Virus record (IMG/VR): IMGVR_UViG_2531839130_000015
Source: a virus
Lineage: Duplodnaviria; Heunggongvirae; Uroviricota; Caudoviricetes
DNA length: 38,838 nt
Strand: one strand, 5' to 3'
In this document: piece by piece, positions 1,363 to 38,838 of the stretch
Numbering within the stretch: position 1 is the first letter of the stretch
Layout: every line of letters starts with the position of its first letter
The notes under the pieces: model-generated
What the model was told of the DNA's origin: nothing
Seen by the model: only the letters and a program-made list of their open reading frames with translations
The model's database searches: none
Translations under genes and position numbers: made by a program

Positions 1363-1446
1363 TTAATTTCGATTATTTTTCCCGGATGGAAAATTCTTAG
1401 AAACCGATCACATACAGCTGTATTTATTAAGGTTATCATCCGTTTC

Positions 1447-1532
1447 GCTGAAAAACATAACCCATAAAATGCTAGCTGTACCAGGAACCACCTCCTTAGC
1501 CTGTGTAATCTCCCTTACACGGGCTTATTTTT
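1447..1532 (+). ncRNA. cyaR: CyaR (RyeE) sRNA; 3' terminator hairpin overlaps the prophage att core
   Basis: Sequence gctgaaaaacataacccataaaatgctagctgtaccaggaaccacctccttagcctgtgtaatctcccttacacgggcttatttttt matches my recollection of cyaR; position directly downstream of yegQ as in E. coli K-12; ends in a stem (gcctgtgtaa/ttacacgggc) plus T-run. Ends approximate. Confidence 0.7.
1504..1530. other. Prophage attachment site core, cyaR-proximal copy
   Basis: About 27-bp sequence aatctcccttacacgggcttatttttta repeated exactly at about 38337..38363; matches the recalled P2 att core; lies between host cyaR and phage ogr. Confidence 0.8.
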
Positions 1533-1635
1533 TACGTACAACAAATTGAAATAAAAGGATTTATTTCTGGTCACGTCCACACATTGACCACATCGACAAA
1601 AAAAGCCCCTCGACTGAGGGGCTTCCTGTTTCTAA

Positions 1636-12212: not shown

Positions 12213-14435
12213 TTACACCTGTGCGACGTTATACCATGTGCCATTGATGTATTTTTGTATCGGTCTGAATACTGCGGGGTCATCACCATCGACTTCACCG
12301 ACAATACCAAGCCCTGTAATTACGTGCCCTGCTTTCTCATACATAACCCCTTTCTGCATAGTCTGAACAACACGAGTGCCCAGGCGAATATCCCGGACAT
12401 AGCGAGAATCTGATTCAGCTTTGGTGTATGCACCAACATCTCCCGCTGATGGTTTTCGTGTTGTGGTATAGAAATCAGACCAGCCAGATTCAAAACCATA
12501 ACCATCACGGGCTGACCTGTAAGATATACCGCCATTTTTATAATTCACACGAAACTGTACAGCCGGGCAGCTACCAGCATTTATATTAAAGTGAAGAATT
12601 AATGCAGATGCTCCCCCAATCAGAGCGTTGTATGCGCCACTGTCCCAATTCCATCCAACGGCTGTATCACCATTAACCGTATTACCTGTCTGCCGAAGTG
12701 CAAATGCACCGACATTTCTGGCATTAAGGGTAATATCTCCAGAACCATCAAAGGCAACACCTGCTATTTTCCTCGGTGTTTCGAGTTTTGAGGCTGTTGC
12801 AGCATTTCCTGAAAGGCTGGAAATAAATGGATGTGAACAGTAATAACCACGTCCATTTTTAAAATCCAGAATAGCCTGTACGTTCGTGCTTTCTGTAGCG
12901 GGATTAGTTGCCCCCCACTTATATGTCGTCTGACCGACGACATAATCCTCTGTCGGAACAATAACCGTTAGCCCTTCCTCTGCAAGAATTTGTACTGGGA
13001 AAGCTCTGGCTTCAACATAAAAAACACTACATACATCATCATCTTTCAGGCTTGTAACAATGGAATGGATTGAACGCTCATTAGTCTGATACGTCCAGAA
13101 ATAACCTGCCGCATATGAACCACGATCGGTCCAGCCTCCGGGCATAACCATGCCATTAAACTCGCAGTTATTCATTACATAATCGCCGTTATAACAACCA
13201 GTTGAAATAACGACGCGGGATGCCATTTCTCCTGAAAGGCTGGCAGCACGGCGAAAGATAACGGGATACCACTTCCCGGCAACGACATTTGCAGGGGCTG
13301 CAAACGAATACTTTCGCATTCCCTTTTTCTTATCCACTTCACCTTTGCTGTAAACATTAATGTTACTCAGGAAGCGTCCTTTATCAGGAATATCCGCACC
13401 GTTCTGATCTTTCTGAAGACGTTTTTCAGCATTGTCATAGGCAGACTTCACCGCTTTTGGTGTTGCAGCCAGCGTTTCAGAATCACTGTTGGTGGCGCTA
13501 CTGAGCTGGACAAGACCTTTTCGCGCTGTGGTGGCATCCTGTGCAGTGTATTTCCCGTTAGCAAGGTCATACGCTGTCTTAACCGCCTTTGGCGTTGCCG
13601 CAAGCGTTTCAGAATCGCTGTTGGTGGCGCTACTGAGCTGGACAAGGCCTTTTCGCGCGGTGGTGGCGTCCTGTGCAGTGTATTTCCCGTTAGCAAGGTC
13701 ATATGCTGCTTTTACCGCTTTTGGTGTTGCGGCGAGCGTTTCAGACGTGCTGTTGGTGGCACTACTGAGCTGGACAAGGCCTTTTCGCGCTGTGGTGGCG
13801 TCCTGTGCAGTGTATTTCCCGTTAGCAAGGTCATATGCTGCTTTTACCGCTTTTGGTGTTGCGGCGAGTGTTTCAGACGTGCTGTTGGTCGCACTGCTTA
13901 ACTGAGTAAAACCTTTGGCGGTCAGCGAGGCGTCCGGGTGACGTCGTGACTGTTCATGTTCTGCAATTTTGTCATCAACGTAATCCTGCGTTGCCATCAC
14001 CGTTGTGGTGTCAATGGTCAGCGCCACTGAGGCCACACTGCTGACGATGATGACCATGCGGCAGGTCTGCGAACGCCCTGAGCCTTCGGCAAGAGCTGGC
14101 TTATAACTTTCAGCCATGTTCGCCACGGCAATTAACGTTCCAGCATCATCGTACAGGCCAAGCTCACGCATCCAGAAACCGCCCACCTCCGGCGGAATAA
14201 CCAGCTCTGCGATAATATAATTACTGTTTCGTTTGTCCTGGCTGATTTTGTTCAGCGCATGTCGCCAGACTTCGTGGATAAGCCCGGTCTGTCCGGCATC
14301 CGGGACAGGCAATTTACCACCGCCATCCCCGACGGCCATCGTGGTAATGTTGACCTTCCGCCCTCCCGGCGCGGTTGCCGCTGCCAGCTTTGCTGCACCA
14401 GCAGTGGTGATAACGGTTCTGAATTTTGTGCTCAT
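12213..14435 (-). CDS. H: Tail fibre protein H (740 aa) with internal tandem repeats and an AT-rich distal receptor-binding region
   Basis: N-terminus P2 gpH-like; four tandem copies of an about 40-aa unit (…LSSATNSTSETLAATPKAVKAAYDLANGKYTAQDATTARKGLVQ…); product longer than recalled P2 gpH (about 669 aa). Confidence 0.85.
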   Translation of the reverse strand: MSTKFRTVITTAGAAKLAAATAPGGRKVNITTMAVGDGGGKLPVPDAGQTGLIHEVWRHALNKISQDKRNSNYIIAELVIPPEVGGFWMRELGLYDDAGTLIAVANMAESYKPALAEGSGRSQTCRMVIIVSSVASVALTIDTTTVMATQDYVDDKIAEHEQSRRHPDASLTAKGFTQLSSATNSTSETLAATPKAVKAAYDLANGKYTAQDATTARKGLVQLSSATNSTSETLAATPKAVKAAYDLANGKYTAQDATTARKGLVQLSSATNSDSETLAATPKAVKTAYDLANGKYTAQDATTARKGLVQLSSATNSDSETLAATPKAVKSAYDNAEKRLQKDQNGADIPDKGRFLSNINVYSKGEVDKKKGMRKYSFAAPANVVAGKWYPVIFRRAASLSGEMASRVVISTGCYNGDYVMNNCEFNGMVMPGGWTDRGSYAAGYFWTYQTNERSIHSIVTSLKDDDVCSVFYVEARAFPVQILAEEGLTVIVPTEDYVVGQTTYKWGATNPATESTNVQAILDFKNGRGYYCSHPFISSLSGNAATASKLETPRKIAGVAFDGSGDITLNARNVGAFALRQTGNTVNGDTAVGWNWDSGAYNALIGGASALILHFNINAGSCPAVQFRVNYKNGGISYRSARDGYGFESGWSDFYTTTRKPSAGDVGAYTKAESDSRYVRDIRLGTRVVQTMQKGVMYEKAGHVITGLGIVGEVDGDDPAVFRPIQKYINGTWYNVAQV
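13430..13925. repeat. Four tandem about 120-bp coding repeats inside tail fibre gene H
   Basis: Near-identical repeated DNA blocks seen directly (e.g. tggtggcgctactgagctggacaag... recurring); corresponds to the repeated peptide unit in H. Confidence 0.8.
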
Positions 14436-37242: not shown

Positions 37243-38256
37243 ATGGCAATCAAAAAACTCGATGATGGTCGATATGAAGTGGACATCCGCCCTACTGGAC
37301 GTAATGGAAAACGCATCCGTAGGAAGTTTGATAAGAAAAGCGAAGCTGTCGCTTTCGAGAAATACACGTTGTACAACCACCACAATAAAGAATGGCTATC
37401 AAAACCAACAGACAAGCGACGTCTGTCGGAGCTGACACAGATCTGGTGGGATTTAAAGGGTAAACACGAAGAGCATGGGAAATCTAATCTTGGAAAAATT
37501 GAAATCTTCACAAAAATAACGAATGACCCATGCGCATTTCAAATTACGAAATCGCTTATCAGCCAGTACTGCGCCACCCGAAGAAGTCAGGGTATTAAAC
37601 CTTCGAGTATCAATCGTGATTTAACATGTATTAGCGGCATGTTTACAGCCCTGATTGAAGCGGAGTTATTCTTTGGTGAGCACCCTATCAGAGGGACAAA
37701 AAGGCTTAAGGAGGAAAAACCAGACACAGGCTATCTCACGCAGGAAGAAATTGCCTTACTGCTTGCTGCTCTTGACGGCGACAACAAAAAGATTGCGATT
37801 CTTTGCCTGAGCACTGGAGCACGTTGGGGAGAAGCAGCTCGTTTGAAAGCAGAAAATATCATCCATAACCGCGTCACGTTTGTTAAAACGAAAACAAACA
37901 AACCACGCACCGTCCCGATCTCAGAGGCTGTTGCCAAAATGATCGCGGATAACAAACGAGGTTTTTTATTCCCTGATGCTGATTACCCTCGCTTCAGACG
38001 AACAATGAAAGCAATAAAACCGGATTTGCCAATGGGGCAAGCCACACATGCACTAAGGCACAGCTTTGCCACTCATTTCATGATTAATGGAGGAAGTATT
38101 ATCACGCTACAACGGATACTAGGTCACACGCGGATTGAGCAAACTATGGTTTACGCTCATTTTGCGCCAGAGTACCTTCAGGACGCCATTTCTCTTAATC
38201 CGCTAAGAGGTGGTACTGAGGCCGAGAGTGTCCACACAGTGTCCACAGTAGAGTAA
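37243..38256 (+). CDS. int: Tyrosine integrase Int (337 aa)
   Basis: P2 Int-like sequence with C-terminal R...HxxR...Y catalytic pattern (ALRHSFATH ... MVYAHF); directly upstream of the att core. Confidence 0.9.
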   Translation: MAIKKLDDGRYEVDIRPTGRNGKRIRRKFDKKSEAVAFEKYTLYNHHNKEWLSKPTDKRRLSELTQIWWDLKGKHEEHGKSNLGKIEIFTKITNDPCAFQITKSLISQYCATRRSQGIKPSSINRDLTCISGMFTALIEAELFFGEHPIRGTKRLKEEKPDTGYLTQEEIALLLAALDGDNKKIAILCLSTGARWGEAARLKAENIIHNRVTFVKTKTNKPRTVPISEAVAKMIADNKRGFLFPDADYPRFRRTMKAIKPDLPMGQATHALRHSFATHFMINGGSIITLQRILGHTRIEQTMVYAHFAPEYLQDAISLNPLRGGTEAESVHTVSTVE

Positions 38257-38336
38257 CGTTTAAGGGCTTTCAGTGGTAATTTATGCCGCTCAAACCCGCA
38301 TTGTACCGTTGAAAGCCCCTACTGGTGACACCCTAA

Positions 38337-38363
38337 ATCTCCCTTACACGGGCTTATTTTTTA
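38337..38363. other. Prophage attachment site core, int-proximal copy
   Basis: Exact second copy of aatctcccttacacgggcttatttttta. Confidence 0.8.
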
Positions 38364-38520
38364 TGCATAAGCCCTATCCCTGGTCACCGTCTTCCATTGA
38401 CCACATCGATAGAATCTCCCTTCATAGCACGATGCCTTTCACGTAACGGCATCGTGCTCGCACAGGTTCCGGCTAAGCACAACCAGAACGCGCATGTTTG
38501 ACGCTTACCAAAAAATATTC

Positions 38521-38838
38521 TCACTCTCCACATTTGAATGTCAGACGAGCGACGCCATGTAATCCTGCACCTTCTGTCTTCAGGTCAACTATCTGCATTT
38601 TTTTGCCCTGAGTAACACAGAAATGGGCTGCATCATTTTTTACTATATTTTCTGCACCAGATATTCTGCCCCTGGCTAAAGAAGCTTCGGCTTCGGTGTA
38701 GTATTGGTTATCGAGTTTACGCTGAATATTACTTTTATATGCAAGACCAAATTTACCGATACTTGTCTCATCATTATGCACAGCACAACCAGACATAATA
38801 AAAATACTAATTAATGATATAGCAGCTATCTTTTTCAT
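38521..38838 (-). CDS. yegR: Lipoprotein YegR (105 aa), host gene
   Basis: MKKIAAISLISIFIMSGCAVHN lipoprotein signal; recalled as E. coli yegR, the next gene after the cyaR-associated prophage remnant in K-12. Confidence 0.75.
   Translation of the reverse strand: MKKIAAISLISIFIMSGCAVHNDETSIGKFGLAYKSNIQRKLDNQYYTEAEASLARGRISGAENIVKNDAAHFCVTQGKKMQIVDLKTEGAGLHGVARLTFKCGE

What the first reader, a model, noticed from the sequence alone, without database searches (positions are those of the whole stretch)
38364..38520. Vestigial phage-arm sequence and partial att core between the int-proximal att and yegR
The 60 bp after the right att core (…ctggtcaccgtcttccattgaccacatcgatagaatctccctt…) resembles the sequence after the left att core on the ogr side (…ctggtcacgtccacacattgaccacatcga…). 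It also contains a partial core (aatctccctt) about 45 bp downstream, followed by an 11-bp-stem hairpin (agcacgatgcc...ggcatcgtgct). This looks like the scar of an older P2-like prophage at the same site, into which the present prophage integrated.
Basis: seen in the sequence. Interest (0 to 1): 0.4.

Follow-up and report, generated by a model that had tools for sequence, protein, structure and literature searches.

The report
Fossil P2 phage arm beside attB
The stretch between the prophage's right end and yegR is ordinary E. coli chromosome found in nearly every strain, with or without a prophage, but its first ~50 bases are a decayed copy of a P2-type phage attachment arm left by a much older integration at the same site.

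Summary
Window 38375-38414 matches the ogr-side phage arm 1562-1601, with exact CTGGTCAC and an exact 15-mer CATTGACCACATCGA. The local alignment scores 21 against 8.5±1.4 in 5000 shuffles, none reaching it. The matching part is the homologue of P2's annotated Int "P arm" site.

The scar is not private to this strain. The 158-bp flank is single-copy in 5418 of 5426 complete E. coli genomes. A composite "empty site" is 100% identical in prophage-free strain 13KWH46. So this is the normal right flank of P2's preferred attB (locI, 3' end of cyaR).

Escherichia sp. E1V33 and most of the 80 Enterobacteriaceae loci fetched have cyaR 74-144 nt from the yegS start. E. coli instead has an ~811-bp AT-rich insertion that starts exactly after the 27-bp core. 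Its order is arm relic, hairpin, yegR, spacer, then a possible decayed second core.

The relic lacks 16 nt including the IHF site, and its first Int repeat is mutated. A minority allele keeps nearly full spacing.

The partial core is weak (p≈0.005, polymorphic). The hairpin is real but has no T-run and no covariation.

Verdict: an ancient, fixed P2-type arm fossil, most likely inert. Modest interest.

The parts
1445..1530 (+). cyaR sRNA gene. Its terminator loop, 3' stem and T-run form the att core.
   Evidence: Rfam RF00112, 100.7 bits
1507..1533 (.). Left copy of the 27-bp P2 att core, AATCTCCCTTACACGGGCTTATTTTTT
   Evidence: Identical to the right copy. Identical to the P2 attP core annotated in NC_001895. 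Core sequence quoted in PMC3931495.
1534..1568 (.). IHF-site region of the present prophage's P arm (…TGAAATAAAAGGATTTATTTC…)
   Evidence: Homologous to the annotated IHF protein_bind feature of P2. Conserved in P2-like arms after cyaR in about 11 loci from several genera.
1569..1596 (.). Int arm-type binding region (P arm) of the present prophage, GGTCACGTCCACACATTGACCACATCGA
   Evidence: Identical to P2's annotated 'Int, P arm' site. Arm repeat consensus tgTGGaCa from PMC3448106.
38222..38248 (.). Int arm-type sites of the P' arm, inside the 3' end of int (context only)
   Evidence: Same sequence as P2's annotated 'Int, P' arm' site
38336..38362 (.). Right copy of the 27-bp att core (int-proximal junction)
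38363..38381 (.). Shortened spacer of the relic arm. It is 24 nt from core to …GGTCA against 40 nt in phage arms, and the IHF-site core is deleted.
   Evidence: MAFFT alignment with phage arms shows a 16-nt gap. A long-form allele in other E. coli has a 36-nt spacer that keeps GGATTGAT.
38382..38409 (.). Relic of the Int P-arm binding region, GGTCACCGTCTTCCATTGACCACATCGA. It matches P2's site at 22 of 28 positions ungapped. The first repeat is mutated (GTCTTC for GTCCAC) and the second is intact.
   Evidence: Positions 38387-38416 are invariant in 13 diverse E. coli, while 38385 (C/A) varies.
38413..38422 (.). 10-nt match to the first 10 nt of the core (the 'partial core'). Significance is doubtful.
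   Evidence: p≈0.005. Polymorphic among strains.
38426..38458 (.). Hairpin with an 11-bp perfect stem and 11-nt loop. No T-run on either strand.
   Evidence: Uncompensated stem changes in B2 and WP4-S18 strains. No Rfam match.
38459..38520 (.). Rest of the conserved E. coli flank, which is the region downstream of yegR. B2-type strains carry 170 extra bp here.
   Evidence: The extra bp hold a truncated second lipoprotein gene.
38521..38838 (-). yegR (105-aa lipoprotein, PF27694). It is part of the same E. coli-specific insertion.
   Evidence: Absent downstream of cyaR in 80 other Enterobacteriaceae loci. 73% DNA identity to a two-gene module at a different locus in other enterics.

Best explanation
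Window 38363-38520 is the normal chromosomal right flank (B' side) of P2's preferred bacterial attachment site, locI, at the 3' end of cyaR. It is not part of the present prophage and not a product of its integration.

Its first ~50 nt are a decayed copy of a P2-type phage P arm, the region where the integrase's N-terminal domain binds. The most likely history is as follows. A P2-type integrative element integrated at the cyaR core in an ancestor of E. coli. It was then eroded until only its cyaR-proximal arm remained, joined to an AT-rich segment carrying yegR. This ~811-bp islet became fixed in the species.

The left core stayed intact because it is the cyaR terminator. It therefore still serves as attB. 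The present prophage entered it by ordinary Int/IHF recombination within the 27-bp core.

The relic itself is most likely inert. It has lost the IHF site and 16 nt of spacing, and one of its two Int repeats.

What is shown: the homology, the species-wide presence, the insertion relative to sister taxa, and the missing parts. What is inferred: the single-element origin, yegR as cargo, and the lack of function.
For: - **Homology is beyond chance.** z=9, 0 of 5000 shuffles. It is the top hit between the insertion and the whole prophage, and it lies at the syntenic position.
- **The matched phage segment is P2's annotated Int P-arm site**.
- **Common descent rather than convergence.** In an alignment of P arms after cyaR from about 11 loci in several genera, the relic shares the conserved repeat ACATTGACCACATCGA. 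It also shares the otherwise variable spacer CTGGTCAC with P2 proper. That spacer is not perfectly conserved within E. coli: about half of the sampled strains have CTGGTAAC at 38385.
- **A long-form allele keeps nearly full spacing.** It occurs in about 125-346 of 5426 genomes, for example at the empty site of PCN033. Its spacer is 36 nt against 40 nt in phage arms and retains GGATTGAT, matching phage GGATTTAT. Spacer alignment gives p≈0.004.
- **Species-wide and independent of prophage.** 5418 of 5426 genomes, single copy. The composite empty site is 100% identical in 13KWH46, and 4565 genomes cover at least 80% of it in one place. K-12 has the same flank beyond its ogrK-D' remnant.
- **It is a derived insertion.** In Escherichia sp. 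E1V33 and most of the 80 other Enterobacteriaceae loci, yegS starts 74-144 nt after the cyaR terminator, with no yegR. E. coli has 811 extra bp that begin exactly at the end of the core.
- **Composition.** The insertion is 40% GC against 50-54% in the neighbouring genes.
- **Possible second core.** The 21-22 nt before the T-run at the far boundary match the core at 13-14 of 21 positions, background p≈0.002-0.006.
- **The same kind of erosion is seen elsewhere.** The cyaR-proximal arm survives in K-12, in E. albertii and in arm-only relics in other genera.
Against: - No phage coding remnant (int, ogr, D) is detectable anywhere in the 811-bp insertion.
- The right-end core-like sequence is not significant in an unanchored alignment.
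- yegR homologues elsewhere sit in non-phage contexts. yegR may therefore have arrived separately from the arm.
- The polarity of the long and short alleles is unresolved, because basal B2 strains carry the short form.
- Only one close outgroup with an unoccupied site (E1V33) was available. E. fergusonii, E. marmotae and E. ruysiae were not examined.
- Lack of function is inferred, not tested. A 30-nt stretch of the relic (38387-38416) is invariant in 13 strains, which could hint at constraint.
Confidence: 0.8

Rival explanations
1. One reading: a recent, lineage-specific scar. An older P2-like prophage in this strain's recent ancestry was deleted, leaving an arm fragment and a partial core, and the present prophage then integrated into that scar.
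For: The arm homology is real. A partial core lies just after it. K-12 shows that such remnants do form at this site.
Against: The flank is present at 90-100% identity in 5418 of 5426 E. coli genomes of all lineages sampled. It is base-for-base identical in prophage-free strains. K-12's own, younger remnant lies to the left of this same flank.
Confidence: 0.03
2. Functional arm-type site. The relic is kept because P2-type integrase still binds the intact repeat (TTGACCACAT) in the bacterial flank. This would help synapsis at locI, explaining why locI is preferred, or alter excision. It would also make the int-side junction (P'-core-relic P) attP-like.
For: The second Int repeat is intact, and 38387-38416 is invariant in 13 diverse strains while neighbouring positions vary. 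The long-form allele has near-native spacing. The right junction has P' arm, Cox region, core and relic P arm in attP order.
Against: In the common allele the IHF site is missing, the spacing is 16 nt short and the first repeat is mutated. In the canonical lambda-type model the bacterial site needs only the core (established knowledge; PMC3448106 describes attB as identical to the core). The preference for locI is already explained by 27 of 27 core identity (PMC3931495). One 30-nt invariant stretch among 13 sequences is weak, post hoc evidence.
Confidence: 0.07
3. Reverse direction. The sequence is ancestral bacterial flank, and P2's ancestors captured it into their P arm by imprecise excision. 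On this view the phage arm resembles the chromosome, not the other way round.
For: Imprecise excision can transfer flanking DNA into phage genomes (general knowledge). The similarity alone does not give a direction.
Against: The E. coli flank is itself an insertion relative to E1V33 and other genera. Complete P arms (IHF site plus two repeats) occur in prophages at cyaR in several genera whose empty sites lack any such flank. The arm repeat is shared with the P' arm on the other side of the core and with P2-type phages that use other cores (PMC3448106). The relic looks like a deleted and mutated derivative, not a precursor.
Confidence: 0.04
4. Chance resemblance, or an RNA or terminator element unrelated to phage. 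On this view the region is the yegR 3' UTR or terminator and only coincidentally resembles the arm.
For: The minus-strand RNA downstream of yegR folds unusually well (z=-4.1). yegR and cyaR converge here, so some termination signal is expected.
Against: 0 of 5000 shuffles reach the arm alignment score. No terminator-like site was found and no Rfam family matched. Stem mismatches are not compensated. A 3'-UTR role for the hairpins would not explain the arm homology and is compatible with the fossil reading.
Confidence: 0.05

Closest known systems
P2 remnant of E. coli K-12 at locI (ogrK-yegZ/D'; Barreiro & Haggård-Ljungquist 1992, as summarised in PMC3931495 and PMC3032704)
   Same: Same site (cyaR core). 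Same polarity of erosion, with the cyaR-proximal, ogr-side arm kept and the int side lost. The right end of the K-12 remnant is a truncated core.
   Different: The K-12 remnant is young. Its arm is nearly identical to P2's, ogr is intact and 213 nt of D remain, and it is lineage-specific. The relic here has no phage genes, is about 75% identical over 40 nt, lacks the IHF site, and is fixed in essentially all E. coli. In K-12 it lies to the right of the ogrK-D' remnant.
P arm of P2 attP (IHF site plus two Int arm-type repeats)
   Same: Same position relative to the core, same strand and the same order of elements. The second repeat and the flanking CATCGA are identical.
   Different: 16 nt including the IHF consensus are missing, or 4 nt in the long allele. 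The first repeat is mutated. No ogr terminator or ogr follows.
Degraded ('grounded') prophages and att-site scars in general, such as decayed elements next to tRNA or sRNA genes
   Same: Insertion begins exactly at an att core at the 3' end of a small RNA gene. AT-rich foreign content. A possible decayed second core at the far end.
   Different: Extremely reduced (~0.8 kb). Its only intact gene is a small lipoprotein with no phage relatives.

Membership tests
P2 bacterial attachment site locI (attB) | 27-nt core identical to the attP core (AAAAAATAAGCCCGTGTAAGGGAGATT, or its complement) | tested here: met
   Both junction cores equal the P2 attP core. Sequence quoted in PMC3931495.
P2 bacterial attachment site locI (attB) | Left flank, one core and right flank are contiguous in strains without a prophage | tested here: met
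   The composite empty site is 100% identical in 13KWH46. At least 80% of it is covered in one place in 4565 of 5426 genomes.
Functional P2-type attP P arm | Two direct arm-type Int repeats matching tgTGGaCa | tested here: not met
   Only the second repeat (TTGACCACAT) is intact. The first reads GTCTTCC instead of GTCCACA.
Functional P2-type attP P arm | IHF site between the core and the arm repeats, at native spacing (~40 nt) | tested here: not met
   16-nt gap that removes TGAAATAAAAG in this window. The long allele elsewhere has 36 nt but a degenerate site.
Functional P2-type attP P arm | Bound by Int N-terminal domain | not testable with these tools
   Needs a footprint or gel shift
Cryptic prophage or prophage remnant | Recognisable phage-derived coding sequence | tested here: not met
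   tblastn with Int, and blastn and tblastx of the 811-bp insertion against the whole prophage, find only the arm. YegR's only phage-database hits are host flank included in prophage records.
Cryptic prophage or prophage remnant | Insertion relative to related genomes, starting at an att core | tested here: met
   E1V33 and most of 80 Enterobacteriaceae loci lack it. The boundary lies exactly after the core T-run.
Cryptic prophage or prophage remnant | Second (direct-repeat) att core at the far end | tested here: inconclusive
   Tests anchored at the boundary give p≈0.002-0.006. The unanchored local alignment is not significant.
Intrinsic (Rho-independent) terminator, for the hairpin at 38426-38458 | GC-rich stem followed by a T/U run | tested here: not met
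   No terminator-like site on either strand. The sequence after the stem is not T-rich.
Structured RNA (any Rfam family) in 38250-38838 | Match to a covariance model, or covariation in the stem | tested here: not met
   Only an E=8.8 noise hit. Stem changes among strains are uncompensated.

The most novel reading that the evidence does not exclude
The fossil arm is not inert. P2-type integrase may still bind the intact repeat in the bacterial flank. In that case locI would be an attB with an arm-type site, which could contribute to P2's strong preference for locI. Alternatively, it could make the int-side junction of every lysogen (P' arm-core-relic P arm) a pseudo-attP that affects excision. 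A related possibility is that the ~0.8-kb yegR islet, bounded by a perfect core and a decayed core, can still be excised by Int and Cox from a resident P2.
Probability: 0.07. Interest if true: 0.55.

Novelty: new member of a known kind. Interest (0 to 1): 0.27.

Why it matters
The result shows that the classic P2 attachment site of E. coli is itself the edge of an older, almost fully erased integration event. P2-type elements were therefore using the cyaR core before E. coli diversified. It also points to a horizontal origin for the E. coli-restricted gene yegR.

There is a practical consequence. The flank is repeatedly swept into "phage" records: ON470606, "Phage TP" AY639599, 91 IMG/VR contigs and phrog_21109. 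The arm-like sequence and yegR should therefore not be taken as prophage content when prophage boundaries are called.

It does not change what is known about how P2 integrates, unless the relic turns out to bind Int.

Tried and rejected
- **Closer phage donor arm.** Searched the phage database for a phage whose arm matches the relic better than P2's. The only long hits were prophage records that include host flank (ON470606, AY639599).
- **Hairpin in another context.** Scanned IMG/VR for the hairpin. All 91 hits are the same E. coli flank.
- **int, ogr or D remnants in the insertion.** None found.
- **Right boundary as a displaced copy of a longer piece of cyaR.** The unanchored alignment was not significant.
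- **YegR as phage cargo.** phrog_21109 matches at 1e-71, but that is explained by host flank in prophage records. More distant YegR homologues lie in non-phage chromosomal contexts.
- **More divergent ortholog of the relic.** The 88%-identical YegR contig (L101) proved to be a B2-type E. coli with homopolymer errors.
- **Rfam and terminator scans.** Both negative.
- **Primary literature.** Barreiro & Haggård-Ljungquist 1992 is not held, so I cannot say whether they noticed the arm-like flank. Four full-text searches found no paper describing it.

Full report
**Layout of the window.** The window runs yegQ (1-1362, +), then cyaR (1445-1530; Rfam RF00112, 100.7 bits), then a 27-bp core AATCTCCCTTACACGGGCTTATTTTTT (1507-1533). 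A P2-like prophage follows, with ogr next to the left core and int ending near 38256. A second identical core lies at 38336-38362, then 158 bp of flank (38363-38520), then yegR on the minus strand (38521-38838). The core is the P2 attP/locI core (sequence quoted in PMC3931495).

**Observation.**
- The flank segment 38375-38414 matches the ogr-side arm 1562-1601 at 75% over 40 nt. It includes exact CTGGTCAC and an exact 15-mer CATTGACCACATCGA.
- With the cores excluded, the local alignment scores 21. Dinucleotide shuffles give 8.5±1.4, and 0 of 5000 reach 21.
- The same pair is the top blastn hit between the whole E. coli-specific insertion and the whole 36.8-kb prophage.
- The 10-mer AATCTCCCTT lies at 38413-38422. 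One other chance 10-mer of the core exists in the window, so its nominal significance is about 0.005. It is altered in K-12 and Nissle.
- The hairpin has an 11-bp perfect stem at 38426-38436 and 38448-38458.

**What the matching phage segment is.** In the annotated P2 genome the order is: Int P' arm site (inside the 3' end of int), Cox sites, core, IHF site, Int P arm site (GGTCACGTCCACACATTGACCACATCGA), the ogr terminator, then ogr. The flank's similar segment (38382-38409, GGTCACCGTCTTCCATTGACCACATCGA) is the homologue of that Int P-arm site. Of the two arm-type repeats (consensus tgTGGaCa, PMC3448106), the second is intact and the first is mutated.

I aligned the sequence after cyaR from P2, K-12 and about nine other enterobacterial loci that carry P2-like arms. 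All have the core, then 8-14 variable nt, then TGAAATAAAAGGATTTATTTC (the IHF site), a variable spacer, GTCCAC, and ACATTGACCACATCGA. The E. coli flank has a 16-nt gap that removes the IHF consensus. It also shares the variable spacer CTGGTCAC with P2 itself, although about half of the sampled E. coli strains read CTGGTAAC there. This pattern argues for common descent rather than convergence on an Int site.

**It is not a private scar.** I joined the left flank, one core and the right flank into a composite "empty site" and searched 5426 complete E. coli genomes.
- The composite is 100% identical and uninterrupted in prophage-free strain 13KWH46.
- At least 80% of it is covered in one place in 4565 genomes.
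- The 158-bp flank alone is single-copy in 5418 of 5426 genomes at 90-100% identity.
- K-12 carries its known remnant (core, P arm, ogrK, 213 nt of D) joined to a truncated core (TACACGGGCTTATTTTTTT). The same flank follows it.

So the region is the ordinary B' side of attB locI. It rules out a recent scar but not an ancient, fixed one.

**It is nevertheless a derived insertion.** Among 80 yegQ loci from other Enterobacteriaceae, none has a yegR homologue within 3 kb, and in most of them yegS starts 74-144 nt after the cyaR terminator. The closest outgroup with an unoccupied site is Escherichia sp. E1V33. There the core is followed directly by GCCTCACGACTTTCATCCTGTTCTGAC…, which is the yegS leader.

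Aligned with it, E. coli has 811 extra bp (L088 2033-2843). They begin exactly after the core's T-run and end at CGACTTTCATCC. The order within the insertion is: arm relic, partial core, hairpin, yegR, about 330 bp of AT-rich spacer, and a core-like sequence. The insertion is 40% GC against 50-54% in yegQ and yegS.

The 21-22 nt before the T-run at the far boundary match the core at 13-14 of 21 positions. Background frequency is 0.002-0.006, and the broader anchored test gives p≈0.003. An unanchored local alignment of that region with cyaR is not significant. I therefore treat a decayed second core as probable but unproven. No int, ogr or D remnant is detectable.

**More support for phage-arm ancestry.** Some IMG/VR contigs, and about 125-346 of the 5426 genomes, carry a long allele of the flank. 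PCN033 is an example with an empty site. In this allele the spacer between the core and the arm repeats is 36 nt (GTGCATAAACCATAGAGACGGATTGATCCCAGGTGA), against 24 nt in the common allele and 40 nt in phage arms. It retains GGATTGAT opposite the phage's GGATTTAT. Its alignment with the phage spacer beats all but 21 of 5000 shuffles.

Independent arm relics after cyaR occur in other taxa. E. albertii has the core, IHF site and first repeat, then IS debris. Several other genera have arms with no P2 coding homology behind them. Erosion that spares the cyaR-proximal arm is therefore recurrent.

**yegR.** YegR (PF27694) is almost confined to Escherichia. Homologues at 76-81% identity lie at a different locus in other enterics (glutaminase, yegR-like gene, a 110-aa lipoprotein, nitroreductase, ivy). 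The E. coli DNA is 73% identical to that module, from 9 nt upstream of yegR to about 120 nt into the second gene. B2-type strains keep 170 bp that encode the first ~38 codons of that second gene, and the window's lineage has deleted them. So the islet is a mosaic. Whether yegR arrived with the P2-type element or separately cannot be decided here.

**Hairpin and possible function.** No T-run terminator was found on either strand and no Rfam family matched. Stem changes in B2 and WP4-S18 strains are uncompensated. The minus-strand RNA downstream of yegR does fold well (z=-4.1), so a role in the yegR 3' end is possible but untested.

The arm relic lacks the IHF site, the native spacing and one repeat. 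I therefore judge it non-functional (inferred). The alternative cannot be excluded without binding and recombination assays: Int may still bind the intact repeat, which would make locI an attB with an arm site and the int-side junction attP-like. I give that about 7%.

**Direction of transfer.** Three observations argue against a phage arm derived from the chromosome.
- The flank is itself an insertion relative to sister taxa.
- Complete arms exist in prophages of genera whose empty sites lack any such flank.
- The repeat is shared with the P' arm and with P2-type phages that use other cores.

**Comparison and novelty.** The closest known case is the K-12 ogrK-D' remnant at the same site (PMC3931495, PMC3032704). 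The present feature is an older, far more eroded, species-wide counterpart. I found no description of it in the held literature. The primary 1992 paper could not be read.

It is a new member of a known kind, a degraded prophage scar at an att site. It is of modest interest as evolutionary history, and useful as a warning for calling prophage boundaries.

Noticed in passing
L201 1128-1163 (E. coli PCN033), also L133, L136 and L185; corresponds to window 38363-38386: A minority 'long' allele of the attB flank has 12 extra nt between the core and the arm relic and keeps GGATTGAT, matching the phage IHF-region GGATTTAT. It is found in roughly 125-346 of 5426 E. coli genomes.
   Followed up: partly
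L002 888-1058 and L006 3182-3351; insertion point corresponds to window ~38512: B2-type strains (DA33135, Nissle 1917 and others) carry 170 extra bp just downstream of the yegR stop. These encode the first ~38 codons of a second lipoprotein gene that follows yegR-like genes in other enterics. The window's lineage has lost this segment.
   Followed up: yes
L008 3001-4533 and the sequence downstream: A genome labelled Enterobacter hormaechei B17-3 has yegQ through the att core 98.4% identical to E. coli, while other Enterobacter are ~80%. Immediately after the core the sequence switches to Enterobacter-type (93% to E. asburiae). This looks like a horizontal-transfer or recombination junction at or near the att core, or an assembly chimera.
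   Followed up: partly
L035 4530-4975 (Pseudescherichia MAG): A small membrane-protein gene is inserted right after cyaR and is flanked by direct repeats of the 3' part of the core (AGGCCTATTTTTTT). This is another mini-insertion at the same att core with no phage genes.
   Followed up: no
L010 4534-4590 (E. albertii); also L012, L069, L082, L060 and L065: Independent P2-type arm relics lie after cyaR with no P2 coding homology behind them. In E. albertii the arm is cut after the first Int repeat and followed by IS-like fragments and a long AT-rich stretch.
   Followed up: partly
Phage records ON470606 (L006 2938-5848) and AY639599 'Phage TP' (L005); phrog_21109: Public 'phage' records and one PHROG family contain host chromosome (yegQ, yegR, yegS, gatR) from this att site. 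YegR's 1e-71 match to phrog_21109 is best explained by this contamination.
   Followed up: partly
window 38350-38357 and 38367-38374: A perfect 8-bp inverted repeat, GGGCTTAT / ATAAGCCC, straddles the core-flank boundary of attB. It is absent from the phage side (the left junction).
   Followed up: no
window 13428-13916: Three tandem copies spaced 132 nt apart (83-88% identical) lie inside a 740-aa ORF (12213-14435, minus strand) of the prophage.
   Followed up: no
Four IMG/VR contigs among L110-L200; corresponds to window 38363-38370: In a few E. coli the 8 nt after the core read ACGCGTAA, as in the K-12 ogrK arm and E. albertii, instead of ATGCATAA. They are followed by the normal flank. This may be conversion or crossover with a phage arm just outside the 27-bp core.
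   Followed up: no
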